Positions 2,000-23,348 of a stretch of DNA of 64,000 nt are shown piece by piece. Position 1 is the first letter of the stretch. Every line of letters begins with the position of its first letter. The translations under genes were made by a program, and so were the position numbers. Below the pieces are notes generated by a model. It had not been told where the DNA came from. It saw only the letters and a list, made by a program, of their open reading frames with translations, and searched no databases. Origin of the DNA: an uncultured Algimonas sp. (GTDB taxonomy: Bacteria > Pseudomonadota > Alphaproteobacteria > Caulobacterales > Maricaulaceae); the NCBI GenBank assembly GCA_964435725.1, contig CAYTAJ010000002.1, positions 115-64,114 of the forward strand, given 5' to 3'.

Positions 2000-2556
2000 C
2001 TTCATTGACGAAAGACGAACAAAAACGAAAAAATACTACTGGTCTCAAACTGGTCGGTTTTATTTTGATGGTCATTTTCGCATCAATGTATGTCAATTGG
2101 AGTGGCGGCTATAAGATTTCAATTGTCGAGCCAATAAAGTTGATTTCTAACTCAGAAGTCGAAAGTGCAAAAGTTACTAAATGTGATAGTATGAAGGTGA
2201 GAATGGGCTCAGGAAATATATCTAACCGCCATTCTCAAGGAATAATATATGCGCCAATTGCAATAACTGAAAAGGGAGAAGAGGCAAGAGGGAGTTATAT
2301 ATTTGGATCTGGGAATTCAAAGTGGTGCTCTGATTTGATTGGAAAGACTGTTAAAGTAAGGGGCCTTAACACTGATGAAGCAATATTGCGAATATCTAGT
2401 TTTTCCCAGCTTTGGTATCCACTATTACAGTTATTACTGGCAATTTTTTGGTTGTTGTTTTCGCCTCAAAATAAAACTTTGACTAAAACATTCCTTTTTA
2501 TCAACCTAATCATATTTCCATTATTGTTTGCATGGGGTTTCTATGTGCAATATTGA
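1996..2556 (+). CDS. hypothetical membrane protein (1 N-terminal TM, beta-rich loop, 2 C-terminal TMs; DUF3592-like topology)
   Basis: Start overlaps the previous stop (ATGA). Hydrophobic segments at residues ~17-35 and in the C-terminal ~45 residues. Confidence 0.65.
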   Translation: MTSLTKDEQKRKNTTGLKLVGFILMVIFASMYVNWSGGYKISIVEPIKLISNSEVESAKVTKCDSMKVRMGSGNISNRHSQGIIYAPIAITEKGEEARGSYIFGSGNSKWCSDLIGKTVKVRGLNTDEAILRISSFSQLWYPLLQLLLAIFWLLFSPQNKTLTKTFLFINLIIFPLLFAWGFYVQY

Positions 2557-2581: not shown

Positions 2582-4756
2582 TCACGTCCTCAGCATCTGC
2601 ATAGGATATTTATTGGCTCGGCTCCAGAGCATGAAGCTTCCGATTGATCCGATAATCGCGCTTATACTGACGATTATGAAGGCAAGGCCGAAGAGGGACG
2701 GATTAACAATATTGCCCAAAGCCGGAATGAACGCTTTTAAAGCGAATAGGCTTACCCCGGCAACCACAACAGAGATTCCAAGTGACATCATAATTTGCGT
2801 TAAGAAAGCATAGAGGACAATACGTGTTGGTCGATTATGGGCGGCCAAAATTCCAATCGGTTGAGCAAATTTTGATAAGAATAACCAAGCCAGGAAACCA
2901 ATTGTCGATAAGATAGAAAAAATGACAATTAGGGCAAATATCTTGAACCCATCTTCAATCACATTTCGCAATTCGACAATTGATGAAAACTTATTATAGG
3001 CTTCGACATTGAAGATATAATTACGCTTCTTCATTTCTGCGATCGTATCCTTCGCCGTATCTTCGGTAAAATAAACAGAGGCGGCATCAAAATCCTTAAG
3101 GCTGTTTTCGCCTGTAATACTGCGCCATGTTTTAAAAATCTCTGTTGTGCTGACGCCATCAATCGCAAAGCGGTCGTTGTAAGGGGCAACAGGCATAAGA
3201 CCGGCAATTTCAAATGACGGTCCCTTAGCATCATAACCTCGCGCAAATTGCACGGTATCAGGATTGCCCACTGATCCTTCTAATATCACCTGATCATAGA
3301 ATTGTTGGCTTAGTGCGATTTTTAACTCATCCGGATATTGCATTAACGATCCCAAAGTCTGCGTATTCTCTGTTCGATCAGAGACCGATAAGGTTTTCAT
3401 ACAAGCCAATAACGGGTCCAAGGGGTCAAGCAGTAGAAGGCGCGCTCTGCGCGTAATAGGGCGATCATTATCAAGATTAGTCAACAAAACGGACTCAATT
3501 TGATCCAAGCGACCAAAAACCTTTGACGCATTGTCCTCTGATTGATCCGACGTCATGCAACCCTCGAAGGGCGAAGCCGAGCTCTTTGAAAAACTAATGA
3601 GAGAGCTATCGAGTTGGTCAAGATCTTGCTGCCTTAGCCGTGTATTGGCAGCGCGCATATTTTGGACAACAACAAAATGTTGCGTTTGTGGATCTTGCTT
3701 TTGTCGTTCAACGTCTGCGCCCACAAAACTCCAAACCCCAAAGGCTAATGTCGCCAAGGTAAGAATAATGCTTAAGACGAAAATATGTGTGAAGATTTTT
3801 ATCTTTTGAAATTTTTCTAGCCAGTTTCGCCCGGGTTCAAAGCTTGTCATGACAGCCAATGAAGCGGCGAGCGAATAATTATTGATGGCTTGTGTCTTTT
3901 TATCGGCAGGGCCGAAGGAAAGATTAGGTGGTACTGGGTTTATATTTTCGATGATTGCCTTAGAGGGCGTAGTATTTTTTACCGACGGCGCTGTATTGGC
4001 AACGATTTTTTTTAATTCGCTGATATTTTTCGTAGGCCAGTCAATAGGTGAGGCAATACCATCTTCATTAAGGCATATATCATTGATTTCGCCATCTGGG
4101 GTGAGAAACAATACAATATCAGCGTATTCTAAAGCTTGTTCATAATTATGCGTAACCCAGATGATTGTACGATTATCTGTCTCTCTTTGCCAATCCTTCA
4201 ATATAGTGAGGCTCTTTTCGGCCCATATAGGGTCCAGGTCGCTTGTTAACTCATCGGCTAAGATCGTGTCTCTGTTGCGGAGGAGGGCTGACATAAGCGC
4301 TAGGCGTCTTTTCTGTCCTCCGGAAAGGTCTCTAACGCGTGCGGAGATTCTATTGCCTGCCTCTGTTGGCATCCCAAATTGTTCTAGAAATTTTTGAAAT
4401 TCTTCGTCGTTTAACGCGATAATATCCATTAAATCTAGATTTAATGTGACCGAGCCACTTTCAAACAAATAAGAGTTTTGAAAAATAAATGAGCAATAAT
4501 CTCCAGGCGTTTCTTTTACCAAATCAATGGGTCGATCAAGACTGTCTGGGTAAAAAAGTGCAGAGGCATTTTCTGTAACATCCGATGGATATAGACGGCC
4601 CAAAATATTTAATAGCGTACTTTTCCCAGAGCCAGATTCACCTAGAACGGCGATAACCTTGCCTTTGGGAATGTCTAATGCGCCTATAGATAAAACAGGC
4701 GCATTGCCATTAAAGCTACAAGTAATATCGCGAAGTTTATAGAGCAGCCCCTGCAT
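2582..4756 (-). CDS. MacB/LolCDE-like ABC transporter, ATPase fused to permease
   Basis: Walker A GESGSGKST, signature LSGGQ, Walker B ILADE, H-loop VTH. Then TM1, a large periplasmic loop and three C-terminal TMs (FtsX/MacB layout). Confidence 0.88.
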   Translation of the reverse strand: MQGLLYKLRDITCSFNGNAPVLSIGALDIPKGKVIAVLGESGSGKSTLLNILGRLYPSDVTENASALFYPDSLDRPIDLVKETPGDYCSFIFQNSYLFESGSVTLNLDLMDIIALNDEEFQKFLEQFGMPTEAGNRISARVRDLSGGQKRRLALMSALLRNRDTILADELTSDLDPIWAEKSLTILKDWQRETDNRTIIWVTHNYEQALEYADIVLFLTPDGEINDICLNEDGIASPIDWPTKNISELKKIVANTAPSVKNTTPSKAIIENINPVPPNLSFGPADKKTQAINNYSLAASLAVMTSFEPGRNWLEKFQKIKIFTHIFVLSIILTLATLAFGVWSFVGADVERQKQDPQTQHFVVVQNMRAANTRLRQQDLDQLDSSLISFSKSSASPFEGCMTSDQSEDNASKVFGRLDQIESVLLTNLDNDRPITRRARLLLLDPLDPLLACMKTLSVSDRTENTQTLGSLMQYPDELKIALSQQFYDQVILEGSVGNPDTVQFARGYDAKGPSFEIAGLMPVAPYNDRFAIDGVSTTEIFKTWRSITGENSLKDFDAASVYFTEDTAKDTIAEMKKRNYIFNVEAYNKFSSIVELRNVIEDGFKIFALIVIFSILSTIGFLAWLFLSKFAQPIGILAAHNRPTRIVLYAFLTQIMMSLGISVVVAGVSLFALKAFIPALGNIVNPSLFGLAFIIVSISAIIGSIGSFMLWSRANKYPMQMLRT

Positions 4757-4766
4757 ACTTTATTGT

Positions 4767-7343
4767 CTAATCAATTTTACGATAACGTGCAATTTCGCCT
4801 GGAAGGTAGCTAGAAGGGATATAGTAATAATCTTCTCCAGAACTGCTGTTCCATGTCCAAGTGAAGTCTCGCAGGTTATCTTTTGACGTCTTGTAATAAT
4901 ACCCATCATCGTCAGAGGCCGATATCAGCCTCTCATCATTGAGACGCTTTCCGTCAATAACTGTTTCTATGAGATAGCTACTTTTGCAAATAGGTTCATA
5001 AATATTTCTAAGACCTTCATGATCACCTTCAGCTCTCTTTGTTTTCCATTCTTCGACAATTTGGTCCGGTGTGTAGTCTAAGAACGATCCAAAATATTCT
5101 TTTGGGATAAAGAGGTATCTTACAATAATTTCCGATACAGCCATGCCAGATAGGTCATCTGTCGTAACCCTATCGCCAGACATTTTTTGTGCGAGGTTAA
5201 TCATAGCATCTTCTAGTTCGTCACGTACGCTGCCTTTTCCAAAAGCTTCACAAGATGTTCTGACAACACGTTGGAAATCCCGCATTGTTTCACCTGGAAT
5301 ATTAATCCAGAAATCAAAATTATTTTTATCCTCTTGGTATAAGACCCATCCTTCAGTCATGAGTTGCTTCTCTTGACTAATACGCTTTATAGCCGCTTCA
5401 TCATAACCTTGTAATTTAAGTGCCAGTTGAATTTCATCCAATCTCGCATTCGGATAATTCTTTTTAATATCCGCTACTTTTACGAGTTTACCTTCGAAAG
5501 CTTGTTGTAATACATCTGCCGCTGCTAACGCTTCTTGATTAATATTGGTCACGCTCTCAACAATTAAGTCTTTTGTACGATTAACGCTTTCTGTTGTTGT
5601 AGCGGTTGCTCCGGCATCATAGGCCAAGCGAACAGTTTCAGTTTTGATAGAAGGATCAAATATACCACCTTCACTATCTTCAGAAGTAGAGGCCAAGGCA
5701 TCTATTTTTTTACGGATAGACTTAGCTTGTCCAATGAAGTGTCCGTTAATATTCTCACGATAATTCCCAGCAACATTAATCGCATTTATTTTAATGCCAT
5801 TTTCAAAAAAACCCTTCGCCGCCGTTTCTATGCGCGTGTCTAAGCTCTCGTCTTGACGATCCCCATGGTCACCTATCCAGATGACAAGCTTTGAACCAGA
5901 ATTACTGGACCAATTTAGATCCGAAATTGAGCGTATTAATGCTGCAGAGCCAGCTTCTGGAATGTCTTTGTAAGCACCATCTTTGAAATAATCATTATTA
6001 TCCGCTTTGTCGGTCAGCTTTTTGAGGTGAGACACTTCACCAGGTGCTGCAAAATTGGCGACAACTTCAAATTCAAGATTGTTAATGTCCGGGTTTTCAG
6101 ATTTTTCTAAGAAGTCGCCATAAACAGCGGCCGCAAAACGAACCTTCGCTTCATTCTCATCATTGTCCAAATCTAATTTCCGTGTGGCTTCTCTGACGCC
6201 GTCAACAACTGCGGAAAAATAAGGTGACATACTTTTGGAATTATCGAGGACATATAATATATCGATGTTTCTAAAATTCTTTTGTTTTAGAATGTTCTCG
6301 CTCATTTCTGCCAAAGCATCTTGACCTGAACGACAACTTTCACCGTCCCCGTCGCAGGATTCACCAAAGAAACCAATTTGATATTTAGTTTCCCGTGATC
6401 CAATGTCATCTTCTTCATAAGGCCTGTTAATATGGGCCAATATTGGGAAACGCGCGATATTACTTTCCAAAGGCTCGAGGTCGCTCGAGCCAGGATGACG
6501 CCCTAGGACAGCGTTATCATTCTCTTCCACCAAGGCAATATTATTCGCATATATAGCCGTGCCTGTTTTATTTTCGTTGAAGTATAGGCTGACCTGAGAC
6601 TCCCAAGGGAACATAGATGATTGCGGAATCCAACCTGCAATCGACCCAGGTTTTAGAAAGTCATCACCACCGACAAAGAACCAATATTCATCACCGATTT
6701 CATAAGCTGCGAAAACGCGGAATATACTGAATATCCCAACATCTGCAATCTTACGCTTACTGCCAACCGGTCTATCGTAAATGGCAACGCGTCGTGCTGA
6801 GTCTATATCTCCTTCAGAGGCGGCTTTTGGGTTGCTTCTCAAAAGCGCTTTTAGCTCAAGAGGATTCTCAATCTCTTTGGTTTCGCCATTAATTTTAATG
6901 ACCTGTTTTGCAAATTGATTGCCACGATCAGTACCAACTATTCTGTGGTATTCAGTGACCTTCATTTTTTTGAGGCCGTCTCTTAATAGGAAAGGACTTT
7001 CCGTCCATCCACAATAATAACCCGTTTCCCCTTTTTTTGAAATGCCAATCAAAGTTCGCCCTGACTCACTTTTAGATTGACTGAGGCGTTCTTTAAAACG
7101 GATTTCAACATTTTCAGGGAGGACAACTTCGCTTGTCCCTGTTGGTCCGGTAAATAAAGGTGGGCTTGACAATAGGGCAAATGCAAATGGGTTTTCACTC
7201 GATGCTAAGGACTCGCCGAATTCTGCAGGACACGTTCCATCTTTTTCTACTATCATGTCTTGAGCTATTGCGGGGACGCTTGCTAGTATAAAGCAACAGC
7301 CCGAAAGCAAAGCTTGCTTAATGTTCTTGCTAAAATTTCTCAC
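4767..7343 (-). CDS. secreted von Willebrand factor A (vWA) domain protein
   Basis: Signal peptide ending AIA-Q. MIDAS motif DxSxS (YVLDNSKSM), then RFAAAVYGD, IPEAG, LNW and LVIWIGD, typical vWA core elements. Helical C-terminus. GTG start overlaps the upstream stop region. Confidence 0.8.
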   Translation of the reverse strand: MRNFSKNIKQALLSGCCFILASVPAIAQDMIVEKDGTCPAEFGESLASSENPFAFALLSSPPLFTGPTGTSEVVLPENVEIRFKERLSQSKSESGRTLIGISKKGETGYYCGWTESPFLLRDGLKKMKVTEYHRIVGTDRGNQFAKQVIKINGETKEIENPLELKALLRSNPKAASEGDIDSARRVAIYDRPVGSKRKIADVGIFSIFRVFAAYEIGDEYWFFVGGDDFLKPGSIAGWIPQSSMFPWESQVSLYFNENKTGTAIYANNIALVEENDNAVLGRHPGSSDLEPLESNIARFPILAHINRPYEEDDIGSRETKYQIGFFGESCDGDGESCRSGQDALAEMSENILKQKNFRNIDILYVLDNSKSMSPYFSAVVDGVREATRKLDLDNDENEAKVRFAAAVYGDFLEKSENPDINNLEFEVVANFAAPGEVSHLKKLTDKADNNDYFKDGAYKDIPEAGSAALIRSISDLNWSSNSGSKLVIWIGDHGDRQDESLDTRIETAAKGFFENGIKINAINVAGNYRENINGHFIGQAKSIRKKIDALASTSEDSEGGIFDPSIKTETVRLAYDAGATATTTESVNRTKDLIVESVTNINQEALAAADVLQQAFEGKLVKVADIKKNYPNARLDEIQLALKLQGYDEAAIKRISQEKQLMTEGWVLYQEDKNNFDFWINIPGETMRDFQRVVRTSCEAFGKGSVRDELEDAMINLAQKMSGDRVTTDDLSGMAVSEIIVRYLFIPKEYFGSFLDYTPDQIVEEWKTKRAEGDHEGLRNIYEPICKSSYLIETVIDGKRLNDERLISASDDDGYYYKTSKDNLRDFTWTWNSSSGEDYYYIPSSYLPGEIARYRKID

Positions 7344-8808
7344 GTGAAAACTCCACTTTCTCAGCCTGCTTTTCAGCTTGTTTCATTGCATTTTTCCAAT
7401 CCAAATTTTCAGATCTTTCAAAGAGGTCAAAGGCAACGATATTATTATTAAAAGATGCTTCTTTTCCGACTTCACAACGGAAGATCTTTTTGGAACTCGA
7501 TAACTTTATCGCTCCCGTGTCATTGGATGTATCTGACATGGGTAGAATAAAAAACGTTGTTTGATCGTTTGTCATTCCAGAAGCTTGGATTGATTTAACG
7601 GCAGAACGGCAAGAGGGGTATTCATCACTAATAAATAAAATGGCTGTCTTATCACCAGCGTTATATCTTTCACTAATTTGATTAAGAGATGGATTTCTCG
7701 TAAAACTTTGCCGAGGTTGCGTAGAAAGCTCAGTCGCAATTTCTAATAAATTCGAGCTTGTCATAATTTCGGCTGGGAAGTTACCTAAAGGCATAAATAT
7801 GGGCGATATTTTACCGTCTTTATCAGGCCCTATCAGGATACCGTCAGTCCATTTCTTGGATGATACGCCAGTTTTGTAAATACTGTTAGTGATGTCCAAT
7901 GTCTCTCGCCAGCGCGCTATTGACCTATGTATTTTTTCAGACTGCATATTAACATAAGCAATGAAAAGAGTGTTGTTAGGCTCTACTGTGAAGGCAAAGT
8001 CAGAATCTTTTAACAAGGATATTAAGTCTTCCAGAGGATATTCTTCCGTCTCTAAATTGTGTTTTTGGCAGCTAGAAGACCCATAAGGTAATGGGTTGGA
8101 AAAATTAATTTTTACTTTGTCTTTATGACTTGAGCCCGGAGGGATGGCGTCAGAATTTGAAAGATGTATATTTCCTTCAATTTCAAACAGACTGCCTGTT
8201 GTGCCTTGGCTTACATTTAAAATTTGAGCTCGACATGTTGTAATCGGCTTGGAAAAACCTTTGTAATTAATAATAGCCTTTAGCTTGATGCGTTCAGGAA
8301 GAGCTTCGACGTTAAATGCATGGTCTTCATCAAGATTGCCAACCTCTCGTTCTTTGATGGCACCTTCAACTTTATGATCGGGTGTTTGCTCCTCGTCTTT
8401 CAAGCTATCAGTTGTGTCTGCTTTTTCATTCACTAATACCTCTTCAGGCATCTTAGGGTTTGTTTGGTTCTCAGGTGTGGTGGGAGCGTTTTCGGCAAGT
8501 GGGGGCATTTCTGCACTTGGAGATGTTGTGGAAAGTATTTTACTAATCTCGTTGATAACGCTTTGGTTGTCTTTAGGTGGTTCTGTGGCTGCCTTTATAT
8601 CATCATCACTCGCTTCTTTTCTGAGTAACCTTCTGACTATATTCGACGTACTTTCGTGAGAGCTTTCTTTTGTAATATCTTCATTTTGAGTTTGTTCCTG
8701 TATCGGAGTGGCTTTTTCATGATGTTCAGATGAAGATTGCGCAATAGCCGGCGATGCAACAAAATAAGATGCAGTTGTGCAGAGCGATAAATAAAATATT
8801 CTGAACAA
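7330..8808 (-). CDS. hypothetical secreted protein with a long E/T/P-rich linker
   Basis: TTG start with a GGGGGGA RBS on the minus strand. Signal peptide ending AIA-Q. Low-complexity region ~residues 25-170, then a folded region with a TAILFISDE (vWA-like strand) segment. Confidence 0.7.
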   Translation of the reverse strand: MFRIFYLSLCTTASYFVASPAIAQSSSEHHEKATPIQEQTQNEDITKESSHESTSNIVRRLLRKEASDDDIKAATEPPKDNQSVINEISKILSTTSPSAEMPPLAENAPTTPENQTNPKMPEEVLVNEKADTTDSLKDEEQTPDHKVEGAIKEREVGNLDEDHAFNVEALPERIKLKAIINYKGFSKPITTCRAQILNVSQGTTGSLFEIEGNIHLSNSDAIPPGSSHKDKVKINFSNPLPYGSSSCQKHNLETEEYPLEDLISLLKDSDFAFTVEPNNTLFIAYVNMQSEKIHRSIARWRETLDITNSIYKTGVSSKKWTDGILIGPDKDGKISPIFMPLGNFPAEIMTSSNLLEIATELSTQPRQSFTRNPSLNQISERYNAGDKTAILFISDEYPSCRSAVKSIQASGMTNDQTTFFILPMSDTSNDTGAIKLSSSKKIFRCEVGKEASFNNNIVAFDLFERSENLDWKNAMKQAEKQAEKVEFSREKF

Positions 8809-8886
8809 TTTCAGTAGTCCCCCCGCTTAATAATTATCATATTTAAGCATTAACTCTTTTGCAAGTTGTAAAGCTCGAAGAAAAAT

Positions 8887-8901
8887 TTAATTATCTGTTA
8901 A
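8887..8901. promoter_or_regulatory. putative CtrA binding site (TTAA-N7-TTAA) in the divergent promoter region of the tad locus
   Basis: TTAA-TTATCTG-TTAA at 8887-8901, 63 bp upstream of the flp ATG. It matches the established alphaproteobacterial CtrA core, but the region is AT-rich so a chance match is possible. Confidence 0.55.
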
Positions 8902-8964
8902 TATTTGCTTGTATCAAGGTTTTTATTTTGATAGTGCAATTTAAGATAAAATGACGGGGGTCTT

Positions 8965-9228
8965 ATGAAAAACTATTTTAACAAATTTTTACGTGATGAA
9001 GATGGAAACAATCTTGTCGTAGGTTTAATTATTCTTGGTATAGTCGCTTTACCGCTTGTTTTTTGGCTAACGGGCCTTGTAAATAGCTCTCGAGACCGGG
9101 CTTCTGATGAGGCAGATCAAATCTTCAATGAAGAGACGGGTTCTCAATATTCTCCTGGTGGAATGGCTGCTTTAGATGTTGATGAGTTGCTAGAAATTAG
9201 AGTTGCAAACTTAATAGTGGTGATTTAA
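8965..9228 (+). CDS. flp: Flp-family (type IVc) major pilin, non-canonical
   Basis: Typical Flp leader MKNYFNKFLRDEDG| followed by a hydrophobic helix. First gene of the operon, next to the prepilin peptidase. Lacks the E+5/Y+6 motif (NNLVVG). Confidence 0.75.
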   Translation: MKNYFNKFLRDEDGNNLVVGLIILGIVALPLVFWLTGLVNSSRDRASDEADQIFNEETGSQYSPGGMAALDVDELLEIRVANLIVVI

Positions 9229-9250
9229 TTCGTAACAAAGCGGCATATAT

Positions 9251-9805
9251 ATGTCGCTTTTTACGACTGCACCTCTAGCCGTACTTTGCGCTTTCTTGGC
9301 TGTAGCGGCACTAATAGATTCAAGAACGCATAAAATTCCGAACTGGTTAACTTTAATCGGTGGGGTTCTCGGGTTAGGCTTAATTGCTCTTGGGGAGGTG
9401 GCATTAAAGAATGCTCTAATAGGCTTTTCGGCTGGTTTCTTGGTTTTTTTCTTTCTGTACATATTAGGAATTGTTGGGGCTGGCGATGTCAAATTAATGG
9501 GGGTGTCAGGTTTGATTTTGGGGTTTCCCGATATAATCATTTTTCTTTTACTGGCGTGTCTTTTTTCATCCGCACTGAGCCTCGTCTATCTGATCTTGTC
9601 TGGAAGAGGTGGGCTTCTGATTAAGGATTTGTCGCGAATTTTCGCGCCTTTCATTAAGCTTTTCAAAAAGCAATCATCAAAACATGTTGTTTCAAATGTG
9701 CAGGGTGAGGCGATGGTTAAGATGCCATTTGCGCCAGGTGCTTTCATAGCAGCCTTGTATTTTTCATACACGTATATTCCGGTTGTGCAGGTCTACAACG
9801 GATGA
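9251..9805 (+). CDS. cpaA: A24 family prepilin peptidase (CpaA/TadV)
   Basis: DxxxxKIPNWL and GAGDVKL catalytic Asp motifs, C-terminal MPFAP, multi-TM. Confidence 0.93.
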   Translation: MSLFTTAPLAVLCAFLAVAALIDSRTHKIPNWLTLIGGVLGLGLIALGEVALKNALIGFSAGFLVFFFLYILGIVGAGDVKLMGVSGLILGFPDIIIFLLLACLFSSALSLVYLILSGRGGLLIKDLSRIFAPFIKLFKKQSSKHVVSNVQGEAMVKMPFAPGAFIAALYFSYTYIPVVQVYNG

Positions 9806-10770
9806 GGCGTTCGGGCGAAATTGGCTTATGGGAGGCCCTGTTGGACTCTCCTACATTTTGGTCAGAAGTTGTATTGCGTGGTGCATTGATTCTTGGGTTG
9901 TTTATCTCAGTTTGCTTTGTTTTGCTTTATTTGTCACGCCGAAGGCGGCGGATGGGGGAAGCTGGCTTTTTTAAAGATGAGCGTGGAAACTGGACGATAG
10001 AATTTGTGCTTATGGCGCCACTTATGACAATTTTTTTCGTTGTTTTAGGGCAAATGACTATATTAATGAGAACGGCCTTGGTGGTTCATTACTCGGCCTA
10101 CAATGCCGCACGATCTGCACGAGTTCACATGCCATCAATATGTGGCACTTTGGCGAAGGTGCAGCCAAATCTTTCAAACAGTTGTGGGGCAGTAAACCAG
10201 TTTGGGGATTTTGTTGAATTGAATAAGCGCGCCCCTCGCCCTGTTTCTAGAAATTATCAAGAGATTGCCGAAAGGGCGGCTCAGAAAACATTGGTTTCTG
10301 CCTCTCCTGTTAATAAGCGTCTTGCTTGTTCTGCTGGGGGAGGGTGTGATGTTCCGGACTTTTTCGATAAAATACCTTTTCAGTCTCAACTCAAAGAGGC
10401 GAGTTTGGTCTCGGCGAACAGACAGCGCGCAAGCTATGCTTATGACCCAGAAAATTTGAACCTTGAGCTTATTGTTGGTGAATTATCGCGATCTGATTTT
10501 CAAAACAAACAAATAACTCTCGAGGACGGAACTCAGATGGCTGCACGTTTGGTTGGTCCGGAAATAGCGCTCACGCAAGGAGAGAATGCTGATAGTGACT
10601 TAGGTTATCCTGTTACCGCAAAATTGACATTTCGTGCGCATTTGATGTTCCCATATTTCTCCAATAATTGCGAGTCAGGTAAATGTCTTTTTGGGGCGCG
10701 GTCGACGACTGACTCATCGGGTCGAAAGCGCTATTATTCTAATATAAATGCCGAAGTGACGGTGTATTAA
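9802..10770 (+). CDS. tadE: TadE-like minor pilin with an unusual N-terminal TM extension
   Basis: FFKDERG|NWTIEFVLMAP prepilin motif with E+5 and the TadE pattern VVHYSAYNAARSA. ATGA coupling to cpaA; alternative ATG at 9952. Confidence 0.85.
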   Translation: MRRSGEIGLWEALLDSPTFWSEVVLRGALILGLFISVCFVLLYLSRRRRRMGEAGFFKDERGNWTIEFVLMAPLMTIFFVVLGQMTILMRTALVVHYSAYNAARSARVHMPSICGTLAKVQPNLSNSCGAVNQFGDFVELNKRAPRPVSRNYQEIAERAAQKTLVSASPVNKRLACSAGGGCDVPDFFDKIPFQSQLKEASLVSANRQRASYAYDPENLNLELIVGELSRSDFQNKQITLEDGTQMAARLVGPEIALTQGENADSDLGYPVTAKLTFRAHLMFPYFSNNCESGKCLFGARSTTDSSGRKRYYSNINAEVTVY

Positions 10771-12510
10771 GTGTCCTCTGTTCCACATAACATTAGAGCC
10801 TCTTTTTTGATGGGTCGAATTAAACGATTTCGACGTTCTGAGCAGGGGTATATTTTACCTTTAATGCTTTTCATGATGTTACTTTTTACGTCAATATTAT
10901 TCTATATGGTGGACACTGGTGATGCTATTCTTAGGAAGACGCGACTTCAGCAGGCAGCTGATTCAGCAGCCATAAGTCAGGCTGAATGGTCGGCGCGGTC
11001 ATTAAATGTCATTTCCATGAATAATGTTGCGCAAACGCAATTACACACAACGCGAATAATTGGGGCAAGTTTACATACTTATGCCTTACAGGCTGAGGCG
11101 AAAACGGCTTATGTTGAGGCTCAGCTTTTAATTGAGACGGGCAAAGTTAATAATTGGAATGTTCAATGGTGTAAGACAAAGATTGGGTGTCTTTATTCTG
11201 CGCCTATTACGGCCACCTGGATGACAGGAATGGGGGTTTATCAAGGTTTTCTACTCTATAACGCTGGCGTTGTTGTTTATAAGCATTGGATAAAATATGA
11301 ACCCATGAATGGGTATGAATATTCTCATAGTGCTTTTGAGGCCATTTATGAGATGGATGATTATTTATTGGATGAAGAAAGAGCGAATGATTTTGGTGCG
11401 GCGAGTTTCGAATTAGCCGAATATCATGGGGCTGAGAACCTCTACACGTTTGGTGGGCAGGGATGCTCAGATCGTAAATGCGGGGACAATAACCCAATTG
11501 GCATGGGTGTTCCCGCTACGAAAGGCAGCTTCAGTCCGAGTGCATCGGATTTATTAAATGCTGGATCAATTGCTAAGCAATTTTGTGACGCCAGCAAAAA
11601 AGGTACGCCGAGTCAAACGTCACGTTTAGGTTATGCTGGCTATCAAGGAGGAAGACTTAATGGCAGTCCCGGGCGTGGTTATCCAACGGGCCGCGGCCCT
11701 TGGATGCATAGTGGTGGCGAGACAGCGTTCAAACACGTAAATGATGAAACCAAAATGGCGCGATATGTCGGCAACTTGGATGATTTATGGAGAGATGCGC
11801 CTTGGCCTGGGTTTTATGGTTCCGGTATGGCTGGACACCCTGGACCAGAGAGGCCTATTGCGCAGCAAAAAACTTGGTTAAAAAAATGGCCTCCAGATGG
11901 CTCAAACCGTCAAAGTATGAATAGTAATGCATTTCTTGAAATGTCAGAAAAGTTAGACGATTTGTATTGTAGTACCTTTGGTGTTGGGGGTGCGGTTCTG
12001 GATCAAATTAAGGTTTTAGATTCGTTTCCTTCGCTAGGTATTTTGCCAAATTTTGCTCGAATGACACCTAGGCCTGTGGGTTTGAAAGGTATGCAAAATG
12101 CAGCAAGCGCATTAGGGTCTACTCCGTCGAGCCTGTTAGAGAGATTTACAGACTCACGTTATATGTCTGTTTTCACGGTCGCGCGTGATGAGGGTAAGAT
12201 TTCCTTGCCAGACCAAGACGACAAGATTTCAATTTACGCCTATTCTCAGGCACAAATTTATAATCCTTCTGCTCCAGACTTATATTCACAAAACTGGCGC
12301 GCGCGTCTGGTTCAAGCCAGTTTTTTAAATGGGCGAGGATGTAACTCTATTTTACAAAATAATTTAACCAGTGATCTGGCTCCGCCGCGTCCAGAAGAGG
12401 TTCTGGATGATATGGGGCAAAAAGCAGGTGGAGGCTTTGAGCAATTTATAGATAGCTTTGACTCGTTTCGGTCGAGTTGTGAGGATTGGGGGGATGTCGT
12501 TGTTTATTAA
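10771..12510 (+). CDS. tadG: TadG-like large minor/tip pilin
   Basis: FRRSEQG|YILPL leader, TM, and VDTG...RLQQAADSAA Tad_N motif. Large Cys/Gly-rich variable region and a C-terminal DLYSQNWRARL motif. Confidence 0.85.
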   Translation: MSSVPHNIRASFLMGRIKRFRRSEQGYILPLMLFMMLLFTSILFYMVDTGDAILRKTRLQQAADSAAISQAEWSARSLNVISMNNVAQTQLHTTRIIGASLHTYALQAEAKTAYVEAQLLIETGKVNNWNVQWCKTKIGCLYSAPITATWMTGMGVYQGFLLYNAGVVVYKHWIKYEPMNGYEYSHSAFEAIYEMDDYLLDEERANDFGAASFELAEYHGAENLYTFGGQGCSDRKCGDNNPIGMGVPATKGSFSPSASDLLNAGSIAKQFCDASKKGTPSQTSRLGYAGYQGGRLNGSPGRGYPTGRGPWMHSGGETAFKHVNDETKMARYVGNLDDLWRDAPWPGFYGSGMAGHPGPERPIAQQKTWLKKWPPDGSNRQSMNSNAFLEMSEKLDDLYCSTFGVGGAVLDQIKVLDSFPSLGILPNFARMTPRPVGLKGMQNAASALGSTPSSLLERFTDSRYMSVFTVARDEGKISLPDQDDKISIYAYSQAQIYNPSAPDLYSQNWRARLVQASFLNGRGCNSILQNNLTSDLAPPRPEEVLDDMGQKAGGGFEQFIDSFDSFRSSCEDWGDVVVY

Positions 12511-13162
12511 TTCTAAATTACGTTCATTTCCGAAAGATGAAAAAGGAACAACGGCAATTGAGTTTTGTCTTTTATTACCTCTATTCGCCGCACTGGCTTT
12601 TTTCGTGTTGGATATGTCGAAAGCACAATTGACCGCCCTGCACGGGGCGTCTGAAGCGAGAACGGCCGCTTGGATGAGTGCGCGCCTAGAGGTTGATATC
12701 GGTGGTAGCTATAGGGCCTTGCCAAAAGAGGTTGCTGGGATGAAACTTTTCCGCCCATTTTGTGATAATGGCGAAGACAGTTTATCGTCACAATATTTAG
12801 AAGATAAACTTCCGAATGAAGATTATGTCGCTAATTTAGAGTCTAAATCTCGTATTGATGATAATGGCGACCAAATGTTTTTAGAAATCACGAACGACGT
12901 CGGTGACAAATTTTTCAGATCAGAATGTGTCGTGAATGATTTCGCCTATTCTGATCGTGGGCCGACGCGGTTTGAATTTTTTAAAATCCAGGAAAAAGCA
13001 CTGGTCCCAAATGTCAGAACCCTTAGGTTTGATGAATCTGATACAATTGCTTGTGGTTACGATCGCTTACTTTTGGATGGACTGGATACGGACGGATTTG
13101 ATGGGCAAATGGATGATCTTTTCCCCAACTTATTTCCACGCGCTTCGAATGGGCAGTGCTAA
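12494..13162 (+). CDS. tadE: TadE-like minor pilin
   Basis: FPKDEKG|TTAIEFCLLLP motif and ARTAAW. ATG 12494 with a GGGGG RBS is preferred over the track start 12458. Confidence 0.88.
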   Translation: MSLFINSKLRSFPKDEKGTTAIEFCLLLPLFAALAFFVLDMSKAQLTALHGASEARTAAWMSARLEVDIGGSYRALPKEVAGMKLFRPFCDNGEDSLSSQYLEDKLPNEDYVANLESKSRIDDNGDQMFLEITNDVGDKFFRSECVVNDFAYSDRGPTRFEFFKIQEKALVPNVRTLRFDESDTIACGYDRLLLDGLDTDGFDGQMDDLFPNLFPRASNGQC

Positions 13163-13164
13163 GC

Positions 13165-13980
13165 ATGGCGCAGCGTTTTACGAAATATAGTTTTCAGTTT
13201 TTGTCTGTCTCCTTCATCTTGCTGGCGTCTTACTTAATGCTTCCAAAGGCATCCGTAGCAGATGTTTACATCCGAACATTAGAGAGCAATGTGGCACAAG
13301 TTCCCGACTTTCCACACCGTATTCTGGGTGGAGGAGCTATGGATATATCCATAAATGAGCAGAAAGCTAAAAGCTTAATTGTTGAAACGGATTTGCCGCC
13401 AAGGGAAGCTATTCAGACACTTTACGATAATCAATCGCTTGGCGACCCTAATATCCCAGAAAGTTGGACAACCAAAAGCCTCTTTGGTGTAATGGGAACC
13501 GATGAGTGGGCATTTTATGCTGATCTTTTCCGTGGTCGTTTATACGCAAAAGAAGAAGGTGGTTACGTAGGGGGATTATCAGAAAAATCTGATTACCCGG
13601 CCCTTGCGGTCTCAGCTTTCAAAAATCCTGAAAGCAATAAGACAATTGTAAATTTTCTTGTCTTTGACGGTGACGCTGATTTGCGTGAAGCCTTTATGAA
13701 TATGAGCCGATTTGATCTCGGTTTTTACAGTGAAGAAACACAATGGGGCGATTTTAAATTTCAGCAATATGACAAAATTTCGGCAGATGATTTGAAACTC
13801 CAGCTTATTAGGGATGCAGAGGAATTAGGGCTTGCATTAGAGACATCAAATTTGGATGGTCGAAATATATTTTTGACATTTTCGGGAAAAAAGAAAACGC
13901 GTGAAATATTTATAAGAGACCCCGAGGGGGGTAGTCTGGGTGTGATTACTCAAGACAGATATTTATCGAAGGAGGGGTAA
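13165..13980 (+). CDS. hypothetical exported protein within the tad operon
   Basis: Signal-peptide-like N-terminus, tightly packed between tadE and cpaB. ATG 13165 (GTG 13156 possible). Confidence 0.7.
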   Translation: MAQRFTKYSFQFLSVSFILLASYLMLPKASVADVYIRTLESNVAQVPDFPHRILGGGAMDISINEQKAKSLIVETDLPPREAIQTLYDNQSLGDPNIPESWTTKSLFGVMGTDEWAFYADLFRGRLYAKEEGGYVGGLSEKSDYPALAVSAFKNPESNKTIVNFLVFDGDADLREAFMNMSRFDLGFYSEETQWGDFKFQQYDKISADDLKLQLIRDAEELGLALETSNLDGRNIFLTFSGKKKTREIFIRDPEGGSLGVITQDRYLSKEG

Positions 13981-14757
13981 ATGCGGTTAGGAATTATTTT
14001 CTTGCTTATATCGTTGATTTTAGGGGGGTACGCCGCTTGGGAAACGAAGAATAAGCTCAGTGCTGAGGAGCAACGTTTTACAGAATGTTTTCTCAGGACA
14101 AATACATTCATCGGTAAAGGAGAGATCCTTGATGGTGATTCTAGAAAAGGCCTCTACACTCGAGAGTGTTTTTCAAGGTCGTCAAGGATGGATCAAATTG
14201 CGGTTGCGGACACGCCGGCGGATCGTGAATGGGTTGAAAGTAGGGCCGCGGTAGTTGATATCGAACAAGGCGTGCTTTTGTTAAAGCAGTTTTTTGTACC
14301 GCCAGACTCAATGGCATTCGATTTAGATCAAATTGAAAAAGGAAAGCGCGCGATTACAATTGGTGTAACGGAATTATCATCAGTTGGTCAGTTTATTGAC
14401 CCTGGGTCACGTGTCGACATTCTTGGTGTTTTTGAAACCCTTACGTCTATGCCAATAGGGACACAAGGCGAAGAAATCGACATTCCGCAAAGTCGCGTGA
14501 AGACTATCTTACAAAGCGTGAAGGTCATTGCGGCAGGACGGGTAACATCTGATGGCGCTTCGAGACAATTACGTGAGCAAGGCGGAGGGTACCGCACAGT
14601 AACTCTAGAGGTGACACCTGAAGAAGCTGAGCTGTTAGTTATGGCAAAGTCTCAATCATCTGTTGGATTGGTTTTAACACTTCGCCGCAAAGACGAAGCT
14701 AATCCAGTGCCGATTCAATCTGTTGACTTTGATGCTGTTATTAATAACGGCAACTAA
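13981..14757 (+). CDS. cpaB: Flp pilus assembly protein CpaB/RcpC
   Basis: N-terminal TM, SAF-like region, and the RcpC-domain motifs GKRAITI...IDPGSRVDILG, KTILQSVKVIA and VTLEVTPEEAELL. Confidence 0.92.
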   Translation: MRLGIIFLLISLILGGYAAWETKNKLSAEEQRFTECFLRTNTFIGKGEILDGDSRKGLYTRECFSRSSRMDQIAVADTPADREWVESRAAVVDIEQGVLLLKQFFVPPDSMAFDLDQIEKGKRAITIGVTELSSVGQFIDPGSRVDILGVFETLTSMPIGTQGEEIDIPQSRVKTILQSVKVIAAGRVTSDGASRQLREQGGGYRTVTLEVTPEEAELLVMAKSQSSVGLVLTLRRKDEANPVPIQSVDFDAVINNGN

Positions 14758-14774
14758 ACGATCGAACGCAGACA

Positions 14775-16772: not shown

Positions 16773-17631
16773 TATAATAAAAGACCCAAGAATATTGGCA
16801 GCTTTAACGGGCCTGTCATGGACGATTGGATTTTTTAGCTTTTTCTACCTTTGCTGGCAGTTGCTAAAACTGGACCGAAGTAAGCTTGATCTATCTGACA
16901 CACTTCAAAAAGATCGTCCTGTTTATGCCAGTCCAATGGGAATAGATATTAGTTTATATTCCATCATTTCTGGTAGTATTTTATTCATCGCTGTTTTTAT
17001 CGCGACGATTAATCCAATCTTCGCAATTATTGCAGGTGGTGCAGGTTTAACGCTTCCTCATTTTTATCAGGTATATCAAACAGACCAAGAAAGAAAAAAG
17101 TTTGAGCGGGACTTGCCCCAAACCGTTGAGCAAATTGCAAGATGGTTGCGATCTGGGCGTTCTTTAGAAGAGTCCATGAGATTAACGTCTCGCGATGCAC
17201 CGTCTGGAACACGCAGAGAAATGCGGCAAATTGCGAGCGAGCTTGATCTAAACGTCCCTGTAAATCATGTGATGACGACGGCGGCGAAACGTATAGGCAG
17301 CGACGCTTTTAACAACCTTGTTGTTTCACTGGCAGTTGCACGGAAAAGAGGCGGTGATATTCCTGTCGTACTCATGAAATTATCTGGAGCCTTGCGTGAG
17401 ATTATACGACTCAATGAAAAACTTAGAACGGCGACAATGGATGGTAAACGGACGGTCCTAATTATTGCTGTTATGCCTTTTGTAATTACCTTGATTGTGA
17501 TGATGGGACAGCCTCAATTAATCGAAACACTGACCGGTGAGATTCTGGGAATAATCATTATGCTGATAAGTGTCATTTTATACATTGGCGCTTTATATCT
17601 CCTAAACGGCATTCTTAAGACGAAAATTTAG
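16765..17631 (+). CDS. tadB: Tad inner-membrane platform protein TadB
   Basis: AGGAGG RBS at 16753. FERDLP...LRSGRSL T2SS-F pattern, GGDIP, and C-terminal TMs. Confidence 0.88.
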   Translation: MLDIIKDPRILAALTGLSWTIGFFSFFYLCWQLLKLDRSKLDLSDTLQKDRPVYASPMGIDISLYSIISGSILFIAVFIATINPIFAIIAGGAGLTLPHFYQVYQTDQERKKFERDLPQTVEQIARWLRSGRSLEESMRLTSRDAPSGTRREMRQIASELDLNVPVNHVMTTAAKRIGSDAFNNLVVSLAVARKRGGDIPVVLMKLSGALREIIRLNEKLRTATMDGKRTVLIIAVMPFVITLIVMMGQPQLIETLTGEILGIIIMLISVILYIGALYLLNGILKTKI

Positions 17632-23333: not shown

Positions 23334-23348
23334 ATAAAGGCTGGGCTG

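What the first reader, a model, noticed from the sequence alone, without database searches (positions are those of the whole stretch)
2582..8808. Divergent vWA + MacB-type ABC operon resembles the T6SS TagS/TagT-PpkA sensory module, here paired with a Tad locus
Seen: a three-gene operon (secreted orphan, secreted MIDAS-vWA protein, ABC ATPase-permease fusion) shares a 156-bp divergent promoter region with flp. Established: in the Pseudomonas H1-T6SS the LolCDE/MacB-like TagS/TagT act upstream of the kinase PpkA and Fha1, and the Serratia PpkA periplasmic region contains a MIDAS vWA domain. Inference: a split version of that threonine-phosphorylation sensory pathway (stand-alone vWA sensor, separate TM pseudokinase, FHA-like receivers) has been wired to a pilus instead of a T6SS. 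No tss genes are in the window.
Basis: partly seen in the sequence, partly recalled or inferred. Interest (0 to 1): 0.7.

Follow-up and report, generated by a model that had tools for sequence, protein, structure and literature searches.

The report
vWA plus MacB-type ABC cassette beside Tad pilus
A tightly packed three-gene operon (secreted protein, secreted metal-binding vWA protein, MacB-type ABC pump) is a real, undescribed cassette that here sits head-to-head with an unusual pilus gene cluster and, in distant relatives, often lies beside protein kinases, so it probably controls or supports the pilus machine from the cell envelope.

Summary
Three minus-strand genes run from 8808 to 2582 and diverge from a flp-like gene across exactly 156 bp. 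They encode a secreted 492-aa protein, a secreted 858-aa MIDAS-vWA protein, and a 724-aa fusion of an ABC ATPase domain (NBD) with four TM helices. The ABC is MacB/FtsX-type: full-length MacB structures are the top Foldseek hits, and hhalign on the membrane half alone gives 90% probability.

The trio is a conserved cassette. The vWA gene had the fused ABC next to it or two genes away in 14 of 14 contexts. All four close relatives (42-88% identity) keep the head-to-head link to the same Tad-like cluster, which lacks a secretin and TadZ. Relatives at about 20-32% identity lie next to authentic transmembrane Ser/Thr kinases (4 loci), an FHA protein (1) or MotA/ExbB clusters (3). None lies next to tss genes.

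The TagST-PpkA analogy is therefore plausible as logic, but membership is not shown. The ABC is fused, the vWA protein stands alone, and its best vWA model is TssR_VWA at a marginal score. The window's kinase-like protein appears to lack the catalytic residues on a weak alignment.

I read it as a new variant of type VII ABC mechanotransmission systems. Its function is inferred, not shown.

The parts
7330..8808 (-). Gene A: secreted 492-aa protein. It has a signal peptide, an acidic Glu/Ser/Thr/Pro-rich linker (about residues 25-170) and a conserved C-terminal domain of about 300 aa with an unknown fold.
   Evidence: ORF. No Pfam, NCBIfam, PADLOC or PDB match. The C-terminal domain is conserved in all cassette relatives (BLASTP E 4e-18 to L005, 7e-22 to L013, 6e-19 to L015). 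Four invariant Cys plus RW and WxDG motifs. hhalign finds no relation to any domain of the vWA protein.
4767..7343 (-). Secreted 858-aa MIDAS-vWA protein with an N-terminal beta-rich region (about 30-330), a vWA domain (355-550) and a C-terminal helical domain (about 580-800).
   Evidence: Pfam TssR_VWA 25.4 bits against a cut-off of 25.7, and VWA weak. AF2 mean pLDDT 71. Foldseek gives generic vWA hits only. Family of 1360 representative clusters, mostly full-length. MIDAS residues invariant or nearly so.
2582..4756 (-). 724-aa MacB/FtsX-type (type VII) ABC protein: an N-terminal ATPase domain fused to four TM helices, with a periplasmic domain between TM1 and TM2.
   Evidence: ABC_tran E 2.6e-21. 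All catalytic motifs intact. AF2 topology. Full-length MacB structures are the top Foldseek hits. hhalign of the TMD against FtsX/MacB_PCD proteins gives 90% probability. Distant orthologues carry weak FtsX Pfam hits.
8809..8964 (.). 156-bp divergent intergenic region between gene A and the flp-like gene. It holds a promoter-like site for the minus-strand operon.
   Evidence: Sequence. TTGCAA-17-TATGAT at 8864-8836 and TTGATA-16-GATAAT at 8917-8890 on the minus strand, though the count of such sites is not above the shuffled expectation. The CAACTTGCAA block is shared with the Algimonas MAG locus L007. The divergent layout is kept in L001, L004 and L007, with gaps of 198, 141 and 155 bp.
8965..9228 (+). 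flp-like pilin gene (87 aa), atypical.
   Evidence: Leader MKNYFNKFLRDEDG followed by a hydrophobic helix. No Pfam Flp hit. Small ORFs of 55-88 aa sit at the same position in L001, L004 and L007.
9251..18579 (+). Core of the Tad-like machine: A24 prepilin peptidase, TadE-like (322 aa), TadG-like (579 aa), TadE/Flp-like (234 aa), an unknown 274-aa protein, RcpC/CpaB, a 665-aa TadA/CpaF ATPase with a 300-aa N-terminal extension, TadB and TadC. No secretin and no TadZ/CpaE.
   Evidence: Pfam and NCBIfam. Orthologues in the same order in L001, L004 and L007.
18592..19677 (+). 361-aa bitopic protein with a possible degenerate FHA-like cytoplasmic N-terminus, a TM helix at 125-146 and a Cys-rich periplasmic part.
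   Evidence: Pfam FHA E 0.2 and Yop-YscD_cpl E 0.23, neither significant. Topology. No PDB sequence match.
19692..22202 (+). 836-aa putative TM pseudokinase with a kinase-like cytoplasmic N-domain, a TM helix at 306-338 and a periplasmic part of about 500 aa.
   Evidence: NCBIfam MAD6 kinase E 0.005. hhalign against cassette-linked kinases is collinear but weak: HGNVRPE aligns with HRDIKPAN, LLGPA with LLDFGSA, DLYALG with DIYSLG, at E 0.027 and probability 1.8%. No Pkinase Pfam hit. Cadherin_4 E 0.06.
22344..24233 (+). A second TadA-family ATPase (329 aa) and a secreted 294-aa protein that close the cluster.
   Evidence: T2SSE E 5.9e-57 and TadA-family TIGR03819 E 4e-81. Signal-like N-terminus.

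Best explanation
The three genes encode one envelope device. A homodimeric MacB/FtsX-type ABC protein sits in the inner membrane. It has two secreted periplasmic partners, the MIDAS-vWA protein and the gene A product.

By analogy with other type VII ABC systems (FtsEX-EnvC, LolCDE, MacAB, YbbAP-TesA, BceAB-BceS, TagTS), I infer that ATP hydrolysis in the cytoplasm moves the ABC's periplasmic domain, and that this movement switches or holds the vWA partner. The vWA MIDAS site would bind an acidic residue of a ligand, possibly the Glu/Asp-rich linker of gene A or a pilus-machine component.

In this lineage the cassette is dedicated to the adjacent secretin-less Tad-like machine and is probably co-regulated with it from the shared 156-bp region. 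It most likely acts as an assembly checkpoint or envelope sensor for that machine. The bitopic pseudokinase and the FHA-like protein would link the periplasm to the cytoplasmic TadA ATPases as scaffolds, without phosphorylation.

Shown: gene structure, domain types, MacB-type fold, conservation of the trio, conserved linkage to this Tad subtype, and recurrent linkage to Ser/Thr kinases in relatives. Inferred: physical complex formation, the direction of signalling, and the effect on the pilus.
For: Tight gene packing: a 14-nt overlap and a 10-nt gap.

The three genes travel together in every relative down to about 30% vWA identity in which a gene A homologue is detectable. The vWA gene had the fused ABC adjacent or two genes away in 14 of 14 contexts.

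MacB-type architecture with intact ATPase motifs. MIDAS conserved family-wide.

All four close relatives keep the head-to-head position with the same Tad-like cluster. Identities of cassette proteins and Tad proteins fall in the same rank order: L007, then L004, then L001.

Kinases lie next to the cassette in L005, L013, L012 and L016, with an FHA protein in L016.

Literature precedents: TagQRST acts upstream of PpkA and Fha1, TagS is COG4591, TagT is COG1136, and P. aeruginosa PpkA has a periplasmic vWA domain (PMC13584744, PMC3224232). The Myxococcus Kil Tad-like system carries many FHA proteins (PMC8460266).
Against: There is no experimental or expression data. Only DNA metagenome runs hold the sequence.

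The cassette also occurs with no Tad genes nearby and with other partners, such as MotA/ExbB clusters, TIR, caspase and mobile-element genes. Its basic role is therefore not pilus-specific.

The pseudokinase and FHA assignments in the window rest on weak alignments. The TadA N-terminal extension has no detectable FHA signal.

The AF2 models are only moderate (pLDDT 71 and 63), and the ABC's periplasmic domain is poorly resolved. Promoter-like sites are no more frequent than in shuffled sequence.
Confidence: 0.4

Rival explanations
1. Structural reading. The vWA protein, gene A and the ABC form the periplasmic and outer-envelope part of the Tad-like machine. They would replace the missing secretin, pilotin and TadZ functions, much as the vWA lipoprotein TssR is a structural subunit of the non-canonical T6SSiii membrane complex.
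For: No secretin or TadZ/CpaE is found in the window cluster or in L001, L004 and L007, although the host is diderm with TonB-dependent receptors and an RND pump.

The best vWA Pfam model is TssR_VWA, matched by 11 of 38 family members with a best E of 5e-11.

The size (about 850 aa against 790 aa) and the layout of N-domain, vWA and C-domain resemble TssR (PMC10781749). In other loci the cassette pairs with other inner-membrane motors, the MotA/ExbB type.
Against: The TssR_VWA score is below the gathering threshold for the window protein. The protein has a type I signal peptide rather than a lipobox, and orthologues lack the Cys. No beta-barrel or other outer-membrane channel candidate is evident. 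A secretin could be encoded elsewhere in the genome. No direct structural comparison with TssR was possible.
Confidence: 0.2
2. Autonomous cassette. The trio does its own job, such as export or surface display of the vWA or gene A adhesin, envelope stress handling, or a conflict or defence function. It lies next to the Tad genes only because both were inherited on one low-GC island.
For: The whole 1-26 kb region has lower GC (0.32-0.46) than the flanking genes (0.47-0.52). Distant cassettes occur without Tad and beside TIR_2, caspase, CHAT, lipase and mobile-element genes. vWA domains are common adhesins, and Foldseek hits include the pilus tip adhesins PitA and SpaC.
Against: The divergent head-to-head layout with flp is kept from 88% down to 42% identity, with co-varying divergence. 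No PADLOC family matches gene A or the vWA protein. There is no membrane-fusion protein or TolC partner for export.
Confidence: 0.2
3. The strict form of the first reader's idea. The ABC and vWA proteins are true evolutionary derivatives (orthologues) of TagS/TagT and of the PpkA sensor domain, moved from a T6SS to a pilus, and they still drive threonine phosphorylation.
For: The domain set is the same as in the TagQRST-PpkA-Fha pathway: type VII ABC, vWA, kinase-like and FHA-like proteins. One relative's kinase carries an FGE-sulfatase domain like TagR.
Against: The ABC is fused and MacB-like, not split like LolD/LolE. The vWA protein is a stand-alone 850-aa three-domain protein. None of 14 contexts has tss genes. 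On a weak alignment the window kinase-like protein lacks the catalytic Asp residues, and no PP2C phosphatase was found among the ORFs scanned. No sequence-level link to TagS, TagT or PpkA was shown.
Confidence: 0.04

Closest known systems
TagQRST-PpkA-Fha1 threonine phosphorylation pathway of the Pseudomonas aeruginosa H1-T6SS
   Same: It combines a type VII (LolCDE/MacB-like) ABC complex, a periplasmic vWA domain, a bitopic Ser/Thr-kinase-type protein and an FHA-type protein, all placed next to an envelope nanomachine. In relatives the cassette sits beside active TM kinases, one of which carries the TagR-type FGE-sulfatase domain.
   Different: Here the ABC is one fused chain and the vWA protein is a separate secreted 858-aa protein rather than the C-terminus of the kinase. 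On a weak alignment the kinase-like protein in the window lacks catalytic residues. No TagQ- or TagR-like protein and no PppA-type phosphatase was found in the scans. The partner machine is a Tad-like pilus, and none of 14 contexts has tss genes. Sequence relatedness to TagS, TagT or PpkA was not tested.
TssR, the vWA lipoprotein of the Bacteroidota T6SSiii membrane complex (PMC10781749)
   Same: TssR_VWA (PF20782) is the best-matching vWA model for this family. Overall length is similar, and both have a central vWA flanked by N- and C-terminal domains. Both accompany envelope machines that lack the canonical outer-membrane component.
   Different: The score is marginal (25.4 against 25.7 bits). 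There is no lipobox and no tssN/O/P/Q neighbours. Hosts are proteobacterial. The protein is always paired with an ABC fusion, which TssR is not reported to be.
MacB / FtsEX / LolCDE / YbbAP type VII ABC 'mechanotransmission' systems
   Same: The domain order is that of MacB: NBD, TM1, periplasmic domain, TM2-4. Full-length MacB structures are the top fold matches. The TMD is homologous to FtsX/MacB_PCD proteins by hhalign.
   Different: The window protein has no Pfam FtsX or MacB_PCD hit. Its periplasmic domain has a divergent sequence. There is no MacA-type adaptor or TolC gene. The partners are a vWA protein and an unknown secreted protein.
Kil Tad-like apparatus of Myxococcus xanthus (PMC8460266)
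   Same: It is a non-canonical Tad-like machine with many unknown accessory genes, FHA-type proteins and a TadA/CpaF ATPase carrying an N-terminal extension. Its authors also drew the analogy to the T6SS phosphorylation pathway.
   Different: Kil has a (short) secretin and a single ATPase, and no vWA, ABC or kinase is mentioned in the paper's main text. In the window the FHA assignment is weak, and the TadA extension is not detectably FHA.

Membership tests
TagS/TagT (T6SS TPP ABC complex) | FtsX/LolCE-type permease fold (4 TM helices with a periplasmic domain) paired with a COG1136-type ATPase | tested here: met
   AF2 topology. Full-length MacB structures are the top Foldseek hits. hhalign of the TMD against FtsX/MacB_PCD proteins gives 90% probability. 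NCBIfam NBD hits include the L_ocin_972 ABC, MacB, LolD, DevA and DarD families.
TagS/TagT (T6SS TPP ABC complex) | ATPase (TagT) and permease (TagS) are separate polypeptides | tested here: not met
   The window has a single 724-aa fusion, as do all but one relative. Only L004 has the gene split, possibly through a frameshift.
TagS/TagT (T6SS TPP ABC complex) | Encoded in a T6SS cluster with tagQ, tagR, ppkA, pppA and fha1 | tested here: not met
   No tss, Hcp or VgrG Pfam families appear in the window or in any of 14 family contexts.
TagS/TagT (T6SS TPP ABC complex) | Phylogenetic clustering with TagS/TagT rather than with MacB, LolCDE or FtsEX | not tested
   TagS and TagT sequences could not be obtained from the available collections. 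Attempts through plasmid records found no T6SS kinase loci.
PpkA-type periplasmic vWA sensor | vWA domain with an intact MIDAS site | tested here: met
   D367, S371 and D492 are invariant and position 369 is at least 90% Thr (Ser in the window). The vWA fold is confirmed.
PpkA-type periplasmic vWA sensor | vWA fused through a TM helix to an active Ser/Thr kinase | tested here: not met
   The vWA protein stands alone with a signal peptide. The kinase-like protein is a separate gene, and on a weak alignment it reads HGN for HRD and lacks the DFG aspartate.
PpkA-type periplasmic vWA sensor | Specific sequence or structure similarity to the PpkA vWA domain | not tested
   No PpkA chain appears among the 50 best Foldseek PDB hits. 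No PpkA sequence was available.
TssR (T6SSiii membrane complex) | Match to the PF20782 TssR_VWA model above its gathering score | tested here: inconclusive
   The window protein scores 25.4 bits against a cut-off of 25.7. Eleven of 38 family members match at E of 1e-3 or better, with a best of 5e-11.
TssR (T6SSiii membrane complex) | SPII lipoprotein signal | tested here: not met
   The leader ends in AIAQ (AxA type). Orthologues have AWAQ, AVA or SHAQ and no conserved lipobox Cys. This is by inspection only.
TssR (T6SSiii membrane complex) | Neighbourhood with tssN, tssO, tssP and tssQ and T6SS core genes | tested here: not met
   None appears in any context (same calls as above).
MacB-type tripartite efflux pump | NBD-FtsX fusion with a periplasmic domain | tested here: met
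MacB-type tripartite efflux pump | Cognate MacA/HlyD-family adaptor and a TolC-type exit duct encoded with it | tested here: not met
   No HlyD or membrane-fusion-protein family is found in the operon or in any relative's cassette. The RND adaptor at 31399-32712 belongs to a separate RND pump.
Canonical Tad/Flp pilus system | flp pilin, A24 peptidase, TadE/F/G-like pseudopilins, RcpC/CpaB, TadA, TadB and TadC | tested here: met
   The flp assignment rests on position and sequence inspection only.
Canonical Tad/Flp pilus system | Secretin (RcpA/CpaC) and TadZ/CpaE in the cluster | tested here: not met
   No Secretin or ParA/MinD-type hit appears among all ORFs of at least 150 aa in 1-26.5 kb, nor in L001, L004 or L007.
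   No BatA or VWA_2 hits in the window protein or in 38 family members.

The most novel reading that the evidence does not exclude
The trio is a portable 'outer-envelope adaptor' that plugs into different inner-membrane motors. It consists of an ATP-driven MacB-like mechanotransmitter, a TssR-like vWA protein and the gene A product. The motors it joins include a Tad ATPase platform here and MotA/ExbB stators elsewhere. In this lineage it lets a Tad-like filament cross or engage the outer membrane of a diderm without a secretin, with kinase- and FHA-type proteins acting as the gate. That would be a new way of building the envelope-spanning part of a type IV filament machine. It would also provide a split, genetically tractable model of the TagQRST-PpkA sensing step.
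Probability: 0.12. Interest if true: 0.85.

Novelty: new variant of a known kind. Interest (0 to 1): 0.6.

Why it matters
How type VII ABC complexes such as TagTS pass an envelope signal to a kinase is still unclear. So is how non-canonical envelope machines manage without their usual outer-membrane parts.

This cassette separates the pieces into distinct genes: ABC, vWA protein and kinase-like protein. Its vWA family is widespread, with 1360 representative clusters, and every member whose source name was looked up is called a hypothetical protein. It is tied here to a Tad-like system that has no secretin.

If the link is functional, it gives a defined, testable unit for studying periplasm-to-cytoplasm control of a pilus. 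It also points to a large uncharacterised family of ABC-vWA envelope devices in marine Proteobacteria.

Tried and rejected
1. Sequence searches of gene A, the vWA protein, their family profiles, the pseudokinase N-domain and the FHA-like protein against PDB chains gave nothing significant.

2. PADLOC gave only generic ABC-ATPase hits, so the cassette is not a catalogued defence system.

3. hhalign of the gene A C-domain against the three parts of the vWA protein showed no relation.

4. The word-indexed homologue search with the family alignment added no new members. The exhaustive representative search was needed to see that the family is large.

5. The genome scan gave 3 loci and the metagenome scan gave 1. 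The viral and plasmid collections gave none.

6. I tried to obtain a PpkA, TagS or TagT sequence for direct comparison. The Ralstonia megaplasmid region I fetched carries no annotation in the collection, and the Azoarcus and Leisingera plasmid kinases proved not to lie in T6SS loci. I abandoned this line.

7. Co-expression could not be tested, because only four seawater DNA metagenome runs hold the sequence.

8. The promoter and terminator scan is not above the shuffled background. There are no tRNA genes to mark island borders.

9. hhalign of the full-length ABC family against MacB-like proteins reported only the NBD. The membrane half had to be compared alone.

10. I rejected BatA-type vWA, BceAB-type peptide-resistance ABC (which has a 10-TM permease) and tripartite MacAB-TolC efflux as identities. 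Their defining features are absent.

Full report
**1. The observation**

The window carries three minus-strand ORFs at 8808-7330 (492 aa), 7343-4767 (858 aa) and 4756-2582 (724 aa). The first two overlap by 14 nt. The last two are 10 nt apart. On the other strand a small flp-like ORF starts at 8965, so the divergent gap is 8809-8964, exactly 156 bp.

Both upstream proteins begin with a hydrophobic leader ending in AIAQ. That is a type I signal peptide pattern by inspection. No predictor was available.

**2. The vWA protein**

Pfam gives TssR_VWA (PF20782) at E 8.8e-6, scoring 25.4 bits against a gathering score of 25.7, over residues 354-539. The generic VWA model is weaker. NCBIfam and PDB sequence searches give nothing.

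An AF2 model built on eight orthologues has a mean pLDDT of 71. It shows three parts:
- a beta-rich N-terminal region at about 30-330;
- a Rossmann-type vWA domain at 355-550;
- a helical C-terminal domain at about 580-800.

Foldseek against the PDB returns only generic vWA domains at probability 1.0. These include integrin beta-I domains, CMG2, the Gram-positive pilus adhesins PitA and SpaC, Ku and TFIIH p44.

The MIDAS residues are D367-x-S369-x-S371 and D492. D367, S371 and D492 are invariant, and position 369 is at least 90% Thr (Ser in the window), across 38 family members that share only 18-34% identity with the window protein. The 'MIDAS-vWA' call is therefore sound.

**3. The ABC protein**

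The N-terminal 230 residues are an ABC ATPase (ABC_tran E 2.6e-21). All the catalytic motifs are intact:
- Walker A (GESGSGKS);
- Q-loop Q93;
- LSGGQ signature;
- Walker B ILADE with E169;
- H-loop H203.

The C-terminal half has no Pfam hit. Hydropathy gives three hydrophobic stretches at 318-349, 598-631 and 646-712. The AF2 model (pLDDT 63) resolves them as four helices at 322-354, 584-629, 645-676 and 686-714, with an alpha/beta periplasmic domain between TM1 and TM2.

Three results place it in the type VII ABC superfamily as a MacB-style fusion:
- The seven best Foldseek PDB hits are full-length MacB chains aligned over about 775 columns, at E 3e-20 to 1e-17. NBD-only chains start at about 1e-13, and many of those are type VII NBDs such as MacB, FtsE, YbbA, HrtA, BceA and YtrE.
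- hhalign of the membrane half of the family against proteins carrying Pfam FtsX and MacB_PCD gives 90% probability and E 1.4e-6 over 354 collinear columns, from TM1 to the C-terminus.
- Distant family members (L016, L017) carry weak FtsX hits of their own and align end to end with closer relatives.

**4. Gene A**

This protein has no match in Pfam, NCBIfam, PADLOC or the PDB. Residues 25-170 are a low-complexity, Glu-rich linker.

Residues 170-480 form a domain conserved in every cassette relative, for example BLASTP E 4e-18 to L005 and 7e-22 to L013. The domain has four invariant Cys plus conserved RW and WxDG motifs. It is unrelated to any part of the vWA protein.

The 'orphan' is thus a conserved third component, not a one-off.

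**5. The cassette elsewhere**

The word-indexed search found only nine vWA relatives. The exhaustive search of 1.84 billion representatives found 1360 clusters at E of 1e-3 or better, and 156 at 1e-30 or better, mostly full-length proteins of 750-870 aa. All those with a source name are called 'hypothetical'.

I could read 14 distinct gene contexts. In all 14 the vWA gene has a fused NBD-4TM ABC gene nearby: directly downstream in 12, and two genes upstream in L016 and L017. A large secreted protein sits just upstream of the vWA gene in these contexts, and it is a detectable gene A homologue in the closer relatives.

Four contexts form a 'Tad clade':
- the window itself;
- an uncultured Algimonas MAG at 88% vWA identity (L007, L008, L009);
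- L004 at 53%;
- L001 at 42%.

All four have the cassette head-to-head with the same gene order: flp, A24 peptidase, a 322-aa TadE-like gene, a TadG-like gene of about 580 aa, genes of about 230 aa and about 270 aa, RcpC, a 665-aa TadA, then TadB and TadC. The intergenic gaps are 141-198 bp. Cassette and Tad proteins diverge in the same rank order across these loci. A CAACTTGCAA block in the gap, overlapping a promoter-like TTGCAA-17-TATGAT site, is shared with the Algimonas locus.

The remaining contexts (about 20-32% identity) have no Tad genes within reach. Their neighbours are:
- L005 and L013: an 830-870-aa TM Ser/Thr kinase two genes upstream, plus conserved genes of about 206 aa and about 421-470 aa downstream.
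- L012: a caspase-domain protein, a kinase fused to an FGE-sulfatase domain, and a MotA/ExbB gene.
- L014 and a second contig with no locus id: a MotA/ExbB-containing cluster.
- L016: an FHA protein and a Pkinase-SH3 protein in the same string of genes.
- L015 (a Hyphomonas MAG): a TIR_2 protein just upstream.
- L017: sits among integrase, relaxase and TrwB genes.
- L011: no recognisable partner.

No context contains T6SS genes.

**6. The neighbouring Tad-like cluster**

It has no secretin and no TadZ/CpaE among all ORFs of at least 150 aa in 1-26.5 kb. The same holds in L001, L004 and L007. The host is nonetheless diderm, with TonB-dependent receptors and an RND pump. The cluster also has two TadA-family ATPases.

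The 836-aa protein has a cytoplasmic N-domain, a TM helix at 306-338 and a periplasmic part of about 500 aa. This is the same topology as PpkA.

Aligned to the cassette-linked kinases, its N-domain is collinear through the catalytic core:
- HGNVRPE aligns with HRDIKPAN;
- LLGPA aligns with LLDFGSA;
- DLYALG aligns with DIYSLG.

The statistics are weak: pairwise E 0.027 and probability 1.8%. NCBIfam gives a MAD6 kinase hit at E 0.005, and there is no Pkinase Pfam hit. If it is a kinase fold, the catalytic aspartates are missing.

The 361-aa protein has an FHA-like N-terminus only at E 0.2. It reads GS for GR and KEVH for SxxH. A TM helix and a Cys-rich periplasmic part follow.

The 300-aa N-terminal extension of the long TadA has no detectable FHA signal.

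The 'pseudokinase' and 'FHA-like' labels therefore remain tentative.

**7. How it most likely works**

Type VII ABC systems use cytoplasmic ATP hydrolysis to do work on periplasmic partners rather than to move substrates across the inner membrane. This is established for MacB, LolCDE, FtsEX-EnvC and YbbAP-TesA, and I cite it from general knowledge.

The tight coupling of the three genes, their strict co-inheritance and the intact ATPase motifs point to one model. An ABC dimer's periplasmic domain engages the vWA protein and the gene A product, and the vWA MIDAS site binds an acidic ligand. These steps are inferred.

The fixed divergent linkage to one Tad subtype suggests that the device serves that machine in this lineage. 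The recurrent kinase and FHA neighbours in relatives suggest that its usual output or input is a bitopic kinase-type protein. I therefore favour a checkpoint or sensor role with TPP-like logic, confidence 0.4. In the window this would be phosphorylation-independent, if the weak kinase alignment is right.

The rivals are:
- a structural role that replaces the missing secretin, as TssR does in the T6SSiii membrane complex (0.2);
- an autonomous export, adhesion or conflict cassette merely co-inherited on the low-GC island (0.2);
- true TagST/PpkA orthology (0.04).

**8.

The literature confirms three points:
- TagQRST acts upstream of PpkA and Fha1.
- TagS is COG4591, TagT is COG1136 and TagR is COG1262 (PMC13584744).
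- P. aeruginosa PpkA carries a periplasmic vWA domain (PMC3224232 and PMC1262709).

The statement about Serratia is not borne out. Its PpkA periplasmic domain is residues 363-482 and is described as distinct from the P. aeruginosa one (PMC6082577).

The analogy in domain content is real, and the kinase-linked relatives strengthen it. Membership fails on three tested features: the ABC is fused rather than split, the vWA protein stands alone, and there is no T6SS neighbourhood. The decisive phylogeny could not be run.

The Myxococcus Kil system shows that Tad-like machines with FHA-type accessories exist (PMC8460266). Its paper, however, describes a secretin and does not mention a vWA protein or an ABC transporter.

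Full-text searches found no description of a vWA-MacB-type cassette with Tad, FHA or kinase genes.

**9. Verdict**

The cassette is an undescribed, widespread family built from known domain types. Its conserved pairing with a secretin-less Tad-like system is new. I rate it a new variant of a known kind, with interest 0.6.

The function rests on comparative inference only. No expression or experimental data exist, because only seawater DNA metagenomes hold the sequence.

Noticed in passing
window 8965-24233: The Tad-like cluster lacks a secretin (RcpA/CpaC) and TadZ/CpaE in a diderm host. The same gene set recurs in L001, L004 and L007. A secretin could still be encoded elsewhere in the genome.
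   Followed up: partly
window 14775-16772 and 22344-23333: The cluster has two TadA/CpaF-family ATPases. One is 665 aa with a 300-aa N-terminal extension of unknown fold, for which precomputed Pfam on orthologues shows a weak PF27713 (UCP018868) hit. The other is a minimal 329-aa protein. They may be an extension and retraction pair.
   Followed up: partly
window 19692-22202: A bitopic 836-aa protein whose cytoplasmic domain aligns weakly but collinearly with Ser/Thr kinases. It has HGN for HRD and no DFG aspartate. The periplasmic part of about 500 aa has a faint Cadherin_4 signal (E 0.06).
   Followed up: partly
window 18592-19677: A bitopic 361-aa protein with an FHA-like N-terminus (Pfam E 0.2) that lacks the usual Arg and Ser phosphothreonine-binding residues. 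Its periplasmic tail contains eight Cys.
   Followed up: partly
window 8965-9228: The flp-like pilin is atypical. It has no Glu5/Tyr6 after the predicted Gly cleavage site, a C-terminal tail of about 45 aa and no Pfam Flp hit. The 234-aa protein at 12458-13162 has the classic G/TTAIEF motif instead.
   Followed up: no
window 1-26000 versus 26000-64000: GC is 0.32-0.46 across the cassette and Tad region, against 0.47-0.52 from the isocitrate lyase and malate synthase genes (26505-29767) onward. This suggests a horizontally acquired island. No tRNA or integrase marks the border.
   Followed up: partly
window 489-2556: Three plus-strand ORFs (157, 355 and 186 aa) downstream of the ABC gene lie in the lowest-GC stretch (0.32). 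They have no family match and are not conserved in relatives.
   Followed up: partly
window 48665-63477: A polysaccharide utilisation locus: a pectate-lyase-like protein, two TonB-dependent receptors, a Chondroitinase_B-family protein, an alginate-lyase/heparinase II/III-type lyase and a dehydrogenase. This fits a marine, alga-associated alphaproteobacterium such as Algimonas.
   Followed up: no
L015 5077-5805; L012 3-2066; L007 12798-17664; L005 327-1046; L017 13528-20142: Distant cassette relatives sit beside TIR_2, caspase (C14), CHAT and lipase or phospholipase genes. One lies within mobile-element genes (integrase, relaxase, TrwB). This hints at a conflict-system or mobile context for some family members.
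   Followed up: no
L012 15060-17834; L013 11919-13893; L014 1-4463: Kinase-linked and other relatives share extra conserved genes of about 206 aa and about 421-474 aa downstream of the ABC, together with MotA/ExbB-type clusters. This suggests a larger uncharacterised envelope system built around the same trio.
   Followed up: partly
L004 12560-14736: In this relative the ABC gene is split into a 224-aa NBD and a 382-aa membrane part, with a small opposite-strand ORF between them. It may be a frameshift, an assembly error or a genuine split.
   Followed up: no
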